This document shows, one piece after another, positions 6,217 to 7,637 of a DNA stretch of 13,090 nt; the stretch's first letter is position 1; the number at the start of each line of letters is the position of its first letter. The translations under genes were made by a program, and so were the position numbers. This stretch comes from a virus (lineage: Duplodnaviria; Heunggongvirae; Uroviricota; Caudoviricetes): IMG/VR virus record IMGVR_UViG_3300029504_000072. One strand, written 5' to 3'. The notes under the pieces are model-generated. The model saw only the letters and a list, made by a program, of their open reading frames with translations. It made no database searches and had not been told where the DNA came from.

Positions 6217-6432
6217 ATGAAATCCATGGATAAGTTAACAACGGGCATCGCCTACAGCACCTCTGCAGGCAGTGCTGGCTACTGGTTTTTACAGTTGCTC
6301 GATAAAGTCACACCCTCACAGTGGGCGGCAATAGGTGTATTGGGTAGTCTGGTATTTGGCATGCTGACGTATCTGACAAACCTTTATTTCAAGATTAAAG
6401 AAGACAGGCGTAAGGCTGCGAGAGGAGAGTAA
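6217..6432 (+). CDS. Class II holin (phage 21 S-type pinholin) with dual-start motif
   Basis: 71-aa product [31 protein letters not shown]...[13 protein letters not shown]; two TM segments and a charged C-terminus; Met1 and Met4 starts (antiholin/holin); RBS GGAGGTGAGG at 6205-6214. The track's 99-aa ORF from 6133 carries an N-terminal extension with no RBS. Confidence 0.85.
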
Positions 6433-6436
6433 GACA

Positions 6437-6655
6437 ATGACTAAAAACTATGAACTGATTGTGAAAGGGACCCGCAATTTTGAGAATAAAGTTACGGTAA
6501 TCTTAACGTTACAGGACAAAGAACGTTTTGCCGGTGAAATTTTTGATCTGAACATCAACCTTGAGCGACTTGAAGGAGCTGGTTTGGATTATTATGAAGT
6601 TACTGCGGTAAAACATGCCAAACAGTTCTTGAGAGATTTGGCTGAAAAAATATAA
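6437..6655 (+). CDS. Hypothetical 72-aa protein between holin and endolysin (positional equivalent of Qin ydfR)
   Basis: RBS AGGAG at 6423-6427; soluble, no TM. Occupies the slot where Qin-like prophages carry a small gene between S and R; homology not verifiable here. Confidence 0.5.
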   Translation: MTKNYELIVKGTRNFENKVTVILTLQDKERFAGEIFDLNINLERLEGAGLDYYEVTAVKHAKQFLRDLAEKI

Positions 6656-6673
6656 AGCGGCATTACTGCCGCT
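6656..6673. terminator. Bidirectional hairpin between convergent small genes
   Basis: Perfect 7-bp stem AGCGGCA / TGCCGCT with 4-nt loop TTAC, starting 1 nt after the 6437-6655 stop. The A-rich plus-strand flank at 6644-6655 gives a U-tract for the minus-strand transcript. Confidence 0.5.
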
Positions 6674-6766
6674 TAGAAATTATTCAATGTCTGGTAGCTT
6701 ATCAAAGATTTCGGATACTCTTATATTTGTCATATAAGCAAATTGAGATTCTGCCAGCTCTTTGGG

Positions 6767-6976
6767 TTATTTTCCCGCTTTTTCTGAGCCAAAAATTGTT
6801 TCTAAAGCCAGCATGTTATATTTGAGAACCTCTTCTCGAGTTTTACCTGATAATTTTGCGGTAACAGCAATATAAAAAGGCAACACTTTATCCAGAAGGT
6901 CGTTGTGTTTTGTCAGTTGTGGTAATACCACATCAAGTTGCTTACTGATTGGTTTGAATGGATCTATACCGTTCAT
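6767..6976 (-). CDS. Hypothetical 69-aa protein, antisense to the lysis operon
   Basis: Minus-strand ORF MNGIDPFKPISKQLDVVLPQ...FGSEKAGK; AGGGA 8 nt upstream of its ATG (spacing long); ends at the shared hairpin. No family recognised. Confidence 0.45.
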   Translation of the reverse strand: MNGIDPFKPISKQLDVVLPQLTKHNDLLDKVLPFYIAVTAKLSGKTREEVLKYNMLALETIFGSEKAGK

Positions 6977-7080
6977 AGTTACATTCCCTTATCAGAGGTA
7001 ATCAGCCATCCCCCCTTTATTACACACGCCAGTATCCACCACTGACGGGCTGAGTGCTTAACATATCTAGAGATTAGAAA

Positions 7081-7099
7081 CTGATAAATCCTGATAAAT
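7081..7099. repeat. Tandem direct repeat CTGATAAAT(C)CTGATAAAT just upstream of the endolysin start
   Basis: CTGATAAAT at 7081-7089 and 7091-7099; a third copy of CTGATAA in inverted orientation (TTATCAG) at 6991-6997. All fall in the divergent intergenic region 6977-7103. Confidence 0.4.
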
Positions 7100-7103
7100 A
7101 TCC

Positions 7104-7637
7104 ATGAATGCTAATATCAAATACGGCCTGTCAGCAGCCGTTCTGGCGCTGATTGCTGCAGGCGCGTCTGCTCCTCAAATACTCGACCAGTTTCTGGACG
7201 AAAAAGAAGGTAACCACACAGCGGCATACCGCGATGGTTCCGGCATATGGACCATCTGTCGGGGGGCCACGGTGGTGGATGGAAAACCCGTTTTTCCCGG
7301 TATGAAACTGTCGAAGGAAAAATGCGACCTGGTTAACGCCATTGAACGTGATAAGGCGCTGGCATGGGTGGAGCGCAATATAAAAGTTCCACTGACCGAG
7401 CCACAGAAAGCCGGTATCGCGTCATTCTGTCCCTATAACATTGGCCCTGGTAAGTGTTTTCCGTCGACGTTTTATAAGCGGCTTAATGCCGGTGATCGTA
7501 AAGGCGCATGCGAGGCGATTCGCTGGTGGATAAAGGACGGTGGACGTGATTGCCGCATTCGTTCAAATAATTGTTACGGTCAGGTTATTCGTCGTGACCA
7601 GGAGAGTGCATTAACCTGCTGGGGGATAGAACAGTGA
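7104..7637 (+). CDS. SAR endolysin (phage 21 R-type lysozyme, GH24)
   Basis: 177-aa ORF; weakly hydrophobic Gly/Ala-rich N-terminal signal-anchor-release segment ([18 protein letters not shown]); lysozyme catalytic spacing E-x8-D-x5-T in [16 protein letters not shown]. Pairs with the pinholin upstream. Confidence 0.9.

What the first reader, a model, noticed from the sequence alone, without database searches (positions are those of the whole stretch)
6217..7637. Pinholin/SAR-endolysin lysis system (phage 21 type) rather than a lambda S/R canonical holin system
The 71-aa holin with an MKSM dual start and the endolysin with an N-terminal Gly/Ala-rich signal-anchor-release segment and E-x8-D-x5-T triad are the hallmarks of the S21/R21 mechanism, where the endolysin is Sec-exported and membrane-tethered before pinholin-triggered release. 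The 28-codon N-terminal extension in the ORF track is unlikely to be translated.
Basis: partly seen in the sequence, partly recalled or inferred. Interest (0 to 1): 0.4.

Follow-up and report, generated by a model that had tools for sequence, protein, structure and literature searches.

The report
Phage-21-type pinholin and SAR endolysin cassette

Summary
6217-6432 encodes a 71-aa class II holin: Pfam "Bacteriophage P21 holin S" E=2e-34, 87% identical to phage 21 S21, with the MKSM dual start, two uncharged stretches and a weakly hydrophobic TMD1. 7104-7637 encodes a 177-aa GH24 lysozyme with E35-x8-D44-x5-T50 and an Ala-rich, uncharged N-terminal segment.

The endolysin is not an R21 orthologue (31.5% identity). 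It belongs to the RrrQ / 933W-R subfamily. 933W R has an identical hydrophobic core and has been used experimentally as a SAR endolysin.

The 28-codon upstream extension is unlikely to be translated. It has no SD, the upstream DNA is not conserved, and GGAGG lies 7 nt before the MKSM start.

- S and R are separated by 671 bp holding a 72-aa DUF1327 (YdfR N-domain) gene and a reverse-strand gene cut short by a nonsense mutation.
- Rz and the embedded Rz1 follow R.
- No Q antiterminator gene lies in the window. IS5 and a recombinase segment replace it, so the cassette is probably silent here.

Matching DNA occurs in 5155 of 5426 complete E. coli genomes. Already known; low interest.

The parts
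6095..6126 (+). Terminator-like hairpin plus T-run between the AraC-like moron gene and S. It would block S transcription unless RNA polymerase is Q-modified.
   Evidence: stem 6095-6116, 7 pairs, tail TTTTCTTTTT
6205..6209 (+). Shine-Dalgarno GGAGG, 7 nt before ATG 6217. A second GAGG at 6211-6214 lies 11 nt before ATG 6226.
   Evidence: sequence read; conservation among essD, essQ, 933W and Evi starts here and not upstream
6217..6432 (+). S: 71-aa class II holin. This is the antiholin form equivalent to S21-71, with Lys2 supplying the extra positive charge.
6226..6432 (+). 68-aa form starting at Met4, equivalent to the active pinholin S21-68. TMD1 lies at about residues 7-28 and is weakly hydrophobic. 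TMD2 lies at about residues 36-58 and carries G40/S44/G48.
   Evidence: alignment to S21
6437..6655 (+). 72-aa DUF1327 protein, equivalent to the N-terminal domain of YdfR. It starts 4 nt after the S stop. It is not a known lysis protein.
   Evidence: PF07041 E=2.2e-26; phrog_2735; 41% identity to K-12 YdfR over residues 1-72
6655..6674 (-). GC-rich hairpin followed by a T-run on the minus strand only. It is the terminator of the reverse-strand gene.
6767..6976 (-). Reverse-strand moron gene, 69 aa here and 98 aa when intact. A TCA->TAA nonsense change at codon 70 truncates it. Function unknown.
   Evidence: phrog_25324 E=5.6e-41 matching positions 1-69 of 98; comparison with phage Evi; no Pfam or PADLOC hit
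7104..7637 (+). R: 177-aa GH24 lysozyme of the RrrQ / 933W-R subfamily, a putative SAR endolysin.
7122..7184 (+). Putative SAR domain, residues 7-27 ([21 protein letters not shown]), preceded by Lys6. It includes A21-S22-A23 followed by Pro24.
7206..7253 (+). Catalytic triad E35 (7206-7208), D44 (7233-7235), T50 (7251-7253).
7634..8131 (+). Rz i-spanin, 165 aa. Its GTG start overlaps the R stop by 4 nt. It has an N-terminal stable TMD.
   Evidence: PF10721 E=1.9e-38; phrog_312 Rz-like spanin E=3e-58; 89.7% identity to RzpQ; TMD KD mean 2.34
7827..8081 (+). Rz1 o-spanin, 84-aa precursor, embedded in the +1 frame of Rz. Lipobox L20-T21-S22-C23.
   Evidence: 94% identity to K-12 RzoQ; phrog_11621 Rz-like spanin

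Best explanation
This is a lambdoid-prophage lysis cassette of the pinholin / SAR-endolysin / two-component-spanin kind.

Shown by sequence:
- S is a close homologue of phage 21 S21, with the same dual start.
- R is a GH24 lysozyme with an intact catalytic triad and an N-terminal, uncharged, weakly hydrophobic segment.
- Rz and the embedded Rz1 follow R.

Inferred from the phage 21, P1 and 933W literature:
- R is exported by Sec. It stays tethered and inactive in the inner membrane through its uncleaved N-terminal segment.
- S accumulates with both TMDs in the membrane. The Met1 form (with Lys2) delays exit of TMD1 and so acts as antiholin.
- At a set time TMD1 leaves the bilayer and TMD2 oligomerises into nanometre-scale pinholes. 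The membrane depolarises.
- The SAR segment of R then leaves the membrane and refolds onto the enzyme body. No SAR-domain cysteine is present, so activation would be conformational as in R21, not thiol-driven as in P1 Lyz.
- Murein is degraded, and Rz/Rz1 then disrupt the outer membrane.

In this genome the cassette is probably transcriptionally silent. The Q antiterminator gene that precedes it in related prophages is missing, and a terminator lies just upstream of S.
For: Holin:
- PF04971 E=2.3e-34.
- 87% identical to HOLIN_BPP21. My recalled S21 sequence was verified by exact look-up under that UniProt name.
- Two uncharged stretches only. TMD1 has KD mean 0.67 with 10/19 G/A/S/T; TMD2 has 1.62.
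- The MKSM start is identical to S21, and GGAGG lies 7 nt upstream.

Endolysin:
- PF00959 and 95.5% identity to RrrQ.
- The triad aligns with R21 and is conserved in 105 homologues.
- Eight Cys are invariant in the catalytic domain, which fits folding in the oxidising periplasm. None lies in residues 1-34.
- The N-terminal core is identical to that of 933W R. 933W R was used as a SAR endolysin whose activity in vivo is low alone and raised by the Mu releasin gp25 (PMC9239132).
- 100 of 105 homologues carry Pro at position 22 or 24, flanking the AxA motif.
- In the AF2 model (pLDDT 85), residues 11-35 pack on the body at pLDDT 94-97. The model fits full-length active R21 (3hde, TMq 0.68-0.71 over 172-179 columns) better than SAR-less R21 (3hdf, TMq 0.54).

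Other evidence:
- Spanins.
- Viable phages carry the same S / DUF1327 / reverse gene / R layout (phage Evi, 96% identity over window 6292-7637; the insert itself differs at 5 of 691 aligned bases).
- About 99% of Stx phages are predicted to use a SAR endolysin plus pinholin (PMC8136144).
- Silence: window 78-3108 (recombinase segment plus IS5) replaces ydfV...ydfU-Q of related prophages. Terminator at 6095-6126.
Against: - No experiment exists on this exact protein pair.
- Hydrophobicity alone does not separate the R N-terminus from ordinary Sec signal peptides. Its 11-residue KD maximum is 2.57, against my recalled OmpA 2.58 and DsbA 2.55.
- The -3/-1 rule leaves other possible cleavage sites after A19, G20, A21 or S22.
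- 5 of 105 homologues lack the flanking Pro.
- The window's R has only one basic residue before the hydrophobic core. Net charge is +1, as in 5/105 homologues; most have +2 or +3. Characterised SAR endolysins have 2-3.
- R has no recognisable SD and sits 671 bp from S, so S-R co-regulation is looser than in phage 21 or 933W.
- The AF2 model takes no account of the membrane.
Confidence: 0.85

Rival explanations
1. The endolysin carries an ordinary cleavable Sec signal peptide. It would be secreted as a soluble periplasmic enzyme, as with Oenococcus fOg44 Lys44 or as was shown for T4 RI. The holin would then only time activation through the proton-motive force, without membrane tethering.
For: - The N-terminus has n-h-c organisation with an A-S-A motif.
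- The h-region is only about 11-15 residues long, and its hydrophobicity lies inside the range of my recalled Sec signal peptides.
- Several alternative -3/-1 sites exist.
- There is a precedent: T4 RI was called a SAR protein and later proved to be cleaved (PMC8385771).
Against: - Pro24 sits at +1 of the best-placed site, and +1 Pro blocks LepB.
- A Pro at position 22 or 24 is kept in 100/105 homologues.
- 933W R, with an identical core, gives few spheroplasts alone and many more with a releasin. A freely secreted active lysozyme would not behave that way.
- Residues 11-35 are predicted to be an integral, well-packed part of the fold, as in full-length R21.
Confidence: 0.08
2. The cassette is a non-functional relic. 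The ORFs are intact only because decay is recent, and no lysis function is exerted in this host.
For: - No Q gene lies in the window. IS5 and a foreign recombinase segment abut the moron region.
- A terminator lies upstream of S.
- The neighbouring reverse-strand gene already carries a nonsense mutation.
- The K-12 Qin and DLP12 counterparts are cryptic (annotation).
- ydfR-region transcripts are almost absent in standard growth (PMC13232886).
Against: - All four lysis ORFs are full length, with catalytic and lipobox residues intact.
- The terminase, portal and capsid genes downstream look intact in the closest genomes.
- This reading concerns expression in this host. It is compatible with the main explanation rather than opposed to it.
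Confidence: 0.55
3. It is a canonical lambda-type system: a large-hole holin plus a cytoplasmic endolysin.
For: Only the general S-R-Rz gene order.
Against: - The holin is class II with two TMDs, not three, and belongs to PF04971, not the lambda S family.
- The endolysin is a GH24 lysozyme with an N-terminal hydrophobic segment, unlike the lambda R transglycosylase.
Confidence: 0.01

Closest known systems
Phage 21 lysis cassette S21 (S21-68 / S21-71), R21, Rz21/Rz1
   Same: - The holin is 87% identical (62/71) and the same length, with the same MKSM dual start.
- TMD2 is identical except at positions 47 and 49.
- The endolysin has the same GH24 fold, the same E35/D44/T50 numbering and an N-terminal Cys-free hydrophobic segment.
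- The spanin is embedded.
   Different: - The endolysin is only 31.5% identical to RrrD/R21. It is 12 residues longer and has eight Cys instead of four.
- Its SAR sequence is unrelated: Ala/Leu-rich, against the Gly/Ala/Ile-rich segment of R21.
- Rz is of the DUF2514 (RzpQ) type, 21% identical to RzpD.
- S and R are not adjacent.
E. coli K-12 Qin prophage essQ-ydfR-rrrQ-rzpQ/rzoQ
   Same: - Same gene order.
- Identities: S 91.5%, R 95.5%, Rz 89.7%, Rz1 94%.
- cspI-ynfQ-ynfN-gnsB lie downstream in the closest E. coli genomes, as in Qin.
   Different: - YdfR is 103 aa and overlaps rrrQ. Here only the first ~72 residues are retained.
- A 496-bp segment with a reverse-strand gene replaces the ydfR 3' end seen in strain EC-107, whose ydfR likewise abuts rrrQ.
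Stx phage 933W S and R
   Same: - The R N-terminal 56 aa are 85.7% identical, with an identical hydrophobic core [18 protein letters not shown].
- 933W R has been handled experimentally as a SAR endolysin.
- S is 80% identical.
   Different: - 933W S starts MYQM, with no Lys in the extension.
- 933W R has three basic residues before the core, against one here.
- In 933W, S and R are 4 nt apart.
Phage P1 Lyz / LydA (the first SAR endolysin)
   Same: GH24 lysozyme with an N-terminal SAR segment. The AF2 model matches 1xjt at E=2.4e-4.
   Different: P1 Lyz is activated by disulfide isomerisation using a Cys in its SAR domain (established knowledge; Xu et al. 2004, ref. 12 of PMC9239132, and Xu et al. 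2005, cited in PMC9636201). No homologue here has a Cys before residue 34.

Membership tests
S21-type pinholin (class II holin, Pfam PF04971) | Sequence membership in the P21 holin S family | tested here: met
   PF04971 E=2.3e-34, 117.6 bits against cut-off 26; 87% identity to HOLIN_BPP21
S21-type pinholin (class II holin, Pfam PF04971) | Exactly two TMDs, with TMD1 weakly hydrophobic (SAR-like) and TMD2 the pore-lining helix | tested here: met
   Two uncharged stretches of 22 and 28 residues. TMD1 KD mean 0.67 (10/19 G/A/S/T) against TMD2 1.62. The values are the same as computed for S21 itself.
S21-type pinholin (class II holin, Pfam PF04971) | Dual-start motif giving a longer antiholin with an extra N-terminal positive charge | tested here: met
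   ATG-AAA-TCC-ATG (M-K-S-M) at 6217-6228, identical to S21, EssD and EssQ. Actual use of both starts was not tested.
S21-type pinholin (class II holin, Pfam PF04971) | Forms ~2 nm heptameric pinholes that depolarise the membrane but do not pass cytoplasmic endolysin | not testable with these tools
   Defined experimentally for S21-68 (PMC9636201). Inferred here from 87% identity.
SAR endolysin (GH24 'true lysozyme' with signal-anchor-release domain) | GH24 / T4-lysozyme-like fold with the E-x8-D-x5-T triad | tested here: met
   PF00959 E=2.2e-23. E35/D44/T50 align to R21 and are conserved in 105 homologues. The AF2 model matches 3hde, 4zpu and 7m5i.
SAR endolysin (GH24 'true lysozyme' with signal-anchor-release domain) | N-terminal basic residues followed by an uncharged TMD-length stretch rich in weakly hydrophobic residues | tested here: met
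   K6 followed by 21 uncharged residues, 10/19 G/A/S/T. The 11-residue KD maximum is 2.57, against 3.57 for the Rz TMD. Only one basic residue is present, against the 2-3 typical of characterised cases.
SAR endolysin (GH24 'true lysozyme' with signal-anchor-release domain) | The N-terminal segment is not removed by signal peptidase | tested here: inconclusive
   The best AXA site (A21-S22-A23) has Pro at +1. A Pro at position 22 or 24 occurs in 100/105 homologues. Other -3/-1 sites cannot be excluded, and SignalP was not available.
SAR endolysin (GH24 'true lysozyme' with signal-anchor-release domain) | Sec-dependent export, membrane tethering in inactive form, and release on depolarisation or by a pinholin | not testable with these tools
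   The Mu study calls release by a pinholin the definitive test. The only indirect support is 933W R, with an identical core, used as a SAR endolysin.
R21 orthologue (phage 21 / DLP12 RrrD endolysin) | Close sequence relationship to R21/RrrD | tested here: not met
   31.5% global identity to RrrD; 3hde E=2.2e-16. It belongs instead to the RrrQ / 933W-R subfamily (95.5% and ~86-90%).
P1 Lyz-type SAR endolysin (thiol-disulfide activated) | A cysteine within the SAR domain | tested here: not met
   No Cys before residue 34 in 105/105 homologues. The first Cys is C52.
Two-component embedded spanin (Rz/Rz1) | An i-spanin with an N-terminal TMD, and an o-spanin lipoprotein encoded wholly inside it in the +1 frame | tested here: met
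   Rz is 7634-8131 (phrog_312, E=3e-58) with TMD KD mean 2.34. Rz1 is 7827-8081, with lipobox LTSC and 94% identity to RzoQ.

The most novel reading that the evidence does not exclude
The small DUF1327 gene lies between the pinholin and SAR-endolysin genes in Qin-type cassettes and starts 4 nt after the S stop. It may be an unrecognised accessory lysis or late-gene regulator rather than a passenger. The 72 residues kept here are exactly the YdfR fragment reported to bind the catalytic half of RNase E and to co-purify with RNA (PMC13232886). It could therefore tune stability of the late/lysis mRNA and so the timing of lysis.

A second, more modest reading concerns the Pro at position 22 or 24, kept in 100/105 homologues. 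It may be the device that turns an ordinary Sec signal peptide into an uncleavable, releasable anchor in this endolysin subfamily.
Probability: 0.1. Interest if true: 0.4.

Novelty: already known. Interest (0 to 1): 0.08.

Why it matters
It matters little beyond correct annotation. The pinholin/SAR-endolysin pathway has been a textbook alternative to lambda lysis since 2004-2009. Matching DNA is found in 5155 of 5426 complete E. coli genomes, and about 99% of Stx phages are predicted to use this pathway.

Three practical points follow.
- PGAP labels such as 'essD' and 'rrrQ' hide the fact that holin and endolysin come from different lineages: an S21-like holin paired with a 933W-R-like lysozyme.
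- Whether the RrrQ-type N-terminus escapes signal peptidase rests on inference and on indirect data from 933W R.
- Lysis cassettes tolerate insertion of unrelated genes between S and R.

Tried and rejected
- PDB sequence search with the holin found only chance hits (acetolactate synthase, E=0.024). No pinholin structure is deposited.
- NCBIfam has no model hit for S, DUF1327, Rz or Rz1. For R it gave only a far sub-threshold BgtA hit (69.5 bits against a cut-off of 315).
- GenBank M65239 (phage 21 lysis genes) is not in the phage collection. I obtained S21 instead by exact look-up of my recalled sequence, which returned the name HOLIN_BPP21.
- Three primary papers were not held: PMC6328262, PMC7171912 and PMC2168629.
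- The paper search for rrrQ/essQ returned almost only unrelated surgical 'ESSQS' papers. The nanopore preprint held no S21 sequence.
- RNA folding around the dual start (6185-6260) gave a hairpin that pairs the SD region. Its z-score of -1.68 (11/200 shuffles as good) is not significant, so I make no claim of a regulatory structure.
- The promoter scan in 5900-8500 found fewer sigma-70-like sites than shuffles do (3 against 5.9). No internal promoter for R is claimed.
- Pfam and PADLOC on the intact 98-aa reverse-strand protein, and PADLOC on DUF1327, gave nothing.
- I considered and rejected a P1-Lyz-type thiol switch (no SAR cysteine) and a three-TMD lambda-type holin.
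Full report
**What is at the coordinates**

The ORF table and the raw sequence show an ATG at 6217 that opens a 71-codon frame ending at 6432 ([13 protein letters not shown]...KAARGE). The same frame stays open back to an ATG at 6133, giving 99 codons. A second frame runs from ATG 7104 to the stop at 7637 and encodes 177 aa. Both coordinates in the finding are exact.

**Source**

The 2.1-kb stretch 6100-8200 is 100% identical to chromosomal loci of E. coli strains. There PGAP annotates essD, a DUF1327 protein, a hypothetical protein, rrrQ and rzpQ. Matching DNA occurs in 5155 of 5426 complete E. coli genomes. Only 54 of these carry this particular arrangement over at least 80% of its length.

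The neighbourhood is that of a Qin-like lambdoid prophage. A lipocalin / YbgA / AraC-type moron block lies upstream. Downstream lie cspI-ynfQ-ynfN-gnsB and then the terminase genes.

**The holin**

- The 71-aa product hits Pfam PF04971, 'Bacteriophage P21 holin S', at E=2.3e-34. It also hits PHROG holin families.
- I recalled the S21 sequence from memory and checked it by exact look-up. The sequence exists in the collection under the UniRef name HOLIN_BPP21.
- The window protein is 62/71 (87%) identical to S21 with no gaps. It is 94% identical to K-12 EssD, 91.5% to EssQ and 80% to 933W S.
- There are only two uncharged stretches, residues 7-28 and 31-58. Three TMDs are therefore excluded.
- The first stretch is very weakly hydrophobic: best 19-residue Kyte-Doolittle mean 0.67, with 10/19 Gly/Ala/Ser/Thr. 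This is essentially the value I compute for S21 itself (0.64).
- The second stretch is a normal TMD (1.62) and keeps G40, S44 and G48.
- The start region reads ATG-AAA-TCC-ATG, as in S21, EssD and EssQ. GGAGG lies 7 nt upstream of the first ATG.

According to the literature, the longer product (S21-71) is the antiholin because of its extra N-terminal positive charge. S21-68 forms heptameric channels of about 2 nm that collapse the proton-motive force (PMC9636201; PMC7312051).

**The 28-codon extension**

ATG 6133 sits directly after a terminator-like hairpin and T-run (6095-6126) and has no purine-rich SD. In an alignment with essD, essQ, 933W S and phage Evi S, the upstream DNA is not conserved at all. 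Conservation begins at the SD and the MKSM/MYQM start.

**The endolysin**

- The 177-aa product hits PF00959 (E=2.2e-23) and the PHROG endolysin family phrog_7 (E=7e-61).
- Among solved structures it matches R21 (3hde, E=2.2e-16) and DLP12 RrrD (4zpu). E35, D44 and T50 align to the R21 triad.
- It is only 31.5% identical to RrrD/R21 overall, against 95.5% to K-12 RrrQ and 88-90% to Stx-phage endolysins. It is therefore a member of the RrrQ / 933W-R subfamily, not an R21 orthologue.
- In 105 aligned homologues, E35 and D44 are invariant and T50 is nearly so. Eight cysteines in the catalytic domain are invariant, and none of the 105 has a cysteine before residue 34.
- The invariant cysteines fit an enzyme that folds in the oxidising periplasm.
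- The absence of an N-terminal cysteine rules out the thiol-isomerisation switch of P1 Lyz. The R21-style conformational switch is the default model by elimination; this is inference.

**Is the N-terminus a SAR domain?**

Lys6 is followed by 21 uncharged residues, [21 protein letters not shown], and then Asp28. The segment is Ala-rich (seven Ala and two Gly in all, plus two Ser) rather than Gly/Ala-rich. It is clearly less hydrophobic than the stable Rz anchor in the same window: the 11-residue KD maximum is 2.57 against 3.57.

Hydrophobicity alone does not distinguish it from ordinary Sec signal peptides. Recalled sequences of OmpA, PhoA, MalE and DsbA give 1.9-2.6 on the same measure. The segment also has an n-h-c layout with an A21-S22-A23 motif.

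What argues against cleavage:
- Pro24 sits at +1 of that site, a position where proline blocks E. coli signal peptidase I (Barkocy-Gallagher and Bassford 1992, as discussed in PMC8385771).
- Across the family, 100 of 105 sequences have Pro at position 22 or 24.

What leaves the question open:
- Alternative -3/-1 sites after A19-S22 cannot be excluded by rule alone.
- The T4 RI story shows that 'SAR' assignments made from sequence can be wrong.

Indirect experimental support comes from phage 933W R. Its first 56 residues are 85.7% identical to the window protein, and its hydrophobic core [18 protein letters not shown] is identical. It was used as a SAR endolysin in the phage Mu lysis study. Expressed alone, it converted few cells to spheres. 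Co-expressed with the Mu releasin gp25, it converted significantly more (PMC9239132). A freely secreted active lysozyme would not show that dependence.

An AlphaFold2 model built on 41 homologues has mean pLDDT 85.
- It places residues 11-18 and 23-35 as two short helices, with pLDDT 94-97 across residues 11-30, packed on the catalytic body.
- It superposes on full-length active R21 over 172-179 columns (3hde, TMq 0.68-0.71). It fits less well on the SAR-less inactive R21 (3hdf, TMq 0.54).
- This agrees with a segment that has a soluble, folded destination after leaving the membrane. The model takes no account of the membrane and is not evidence of tethering.
- A 60%-identical endolysin from phage ZCEC13 has a different but equally weak N-terminal segment (MTALLAVFALGGGVV), so the architecture is conserved beyond the sequence.

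One oddity: the window protein, like that of phage Evi, has only one basic residue before the core. Net charge is +1, as in 5 of 105 homologues. Most have +2 or +3, and the characterised SAR endolysins have 2-3 basic residues.

**What else lies in the interval**

S and R are not adjacent as they are in phage 21/DLP12 and 933W.

- Four nucleotides after the S stop, a 72-codon gene (6437-6655) encodes a DUF1327 protein (PF07041, E=2.2e-26). It corresponds to the first 72 residues of the 103-aa K-12 YdfR.
- Compared with strain EC-107, where ydfR abuts rrrQ, window 6598-7093 (496 bp) replaces 137 bp.
- The replacement brings a hairpin that is a terminator only on the minus strand (6655-6674).
- It also brings a reverse-strand gene (6976 to 6767) of PHROG 25324. 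This gene encodes 98 aa in phage Evi and in more than a thousand contigs. Here a TCA-to-TAA change at codon 70 cuts it to 69 aa. It has no Pfam or PADLOC match.
- Phage Evi carries the same S / DUF1327 / reverse gene / R layout. It matches at 96% identity over window 6292-7637, and the 691-column alignment across the insert differs at only 5 bases. The arrangement is therefore compatible with a working lysis cassette.

**The rest of the cassette**

Rz (7634-8131) has a GTG start that overlaps the R stop. It matches PF10721 and phrog_312 and is 89.7% identical to RzpQ. Rz1 (7827-8081) is embedded in its +1 frame, carries the lipobox LTSC and is 94% identical to RzoQ.

**Is it expressed here?**

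In related prophages an antiterminator Q gene lies just upstream of the lipocalin/YbgA/AraC block. In the window that position is occupied by IS5 (homology with related prophages resumes at 1910). To the left of IS5 lies a segment encoding a tyrosine recombinase (90-1184, PF00589) and two small ORFs. Only the first 77 bases of the window match Qin-type DNA.

With no Q in the window and a terminator just upstream of S, the cassette is probably silent here, like the K-12 Qin and DLP12 counterparts. This is inference; the rest of the genome was not available.

**Verdict**

The system is a known kind, and the genes are near-identical to annotated E. coli prophage genes.

Two refinements are needed. 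First, only the holin is of phage 21 lineage, while the endolysin is of the RrrQ / 933W-R lineage. Second, two unrelated genes separate them.

Non-cleavage of the endolysin N-terminus and pinhole formation are inferred from homologues, not shown. Interest is low.

Noticed in passing
window 6767-6976 (-), with the mosaic segment 6598-7093: A reverse-strand gene (PHROG 25324, no Pfam or PADLOC hit) with its own minus-strand terminator sits between the holin and endolysin genes. It encodes 98 aa in phage Evi and many E. coli. Here a TCA->TAA nonsense change at codon 70 (T at 6768 on the + strand, where Evi has G) truncates it to 69 aa. The 496-bp segment replaces the 3' 137 bp of ydfR.
   Followed up: partly
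window 6437-6655 (+): The 72-aa DUF1327 protein equals the N-terminal 72 residues of K-12 YdfR. That same fragment was recovered in a two-hybrid screen as binding the catalytic half of RNase E, and the full-length protein co-purified with RNA (PMC13232886). The gene starts 4 nt after the holin stop.
   Followed up: partly
window 1-3108: No Q antiterminator gene is present. A segment with a tyrosine recombinase gene (90-1184, PF00589) and two small ORFs (1254-1490, 1506-1778), followed by IS5 (transposase 1982-2962), replaces the ydfV-relBE-hokD-rem-ydfU-Q region of related Qin-like prophages. Only bases 1-77 match a flxA-like fragment.
   Followed up: partly
window 3230-6026: A moron block lies between the usual Q position and the holin: a lipocalin (Blc-like, minus strand), a YbgA-family protein (2-thiouracil desulfurase plus DUF1722 domains) and an AraC-type regulator. 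A terminator-like hairpin follows at 6095-6126.
   Followed up: no
R-family alignment (105 homologues of window 7104-7637): 100/105 sequences have Pro at position 22 or 24, flanking the A21-x-A23 motif, in near-complementary fashion (S-A-P in 69, P-A-S/T in 24, P-A-P in 5). Eight catalytic-domain cysteines are invariant. The window and phage Evi have an unusually low N-terminal net charge of +1.
   Followed up: partly
L004 1281-1496 (933W S) and L005 (phage Evi S): The 933W and Evi holins begin MYQM rather than MKSM. Their three-residue extension carries no lysine, so the charge-based antiholin logic described for S21-71 may not apply to them.
   Followed up: no
window 7080-7103: The endolysin gene has no recognisable Shine-Dalgarno sequence in the 25 nt upstream (A/T-rich: ctgataaatcctgataaatatcc). 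In Qin-type cassettes without the insert, its start overlaps the ydfR stop.
   Followed up: no
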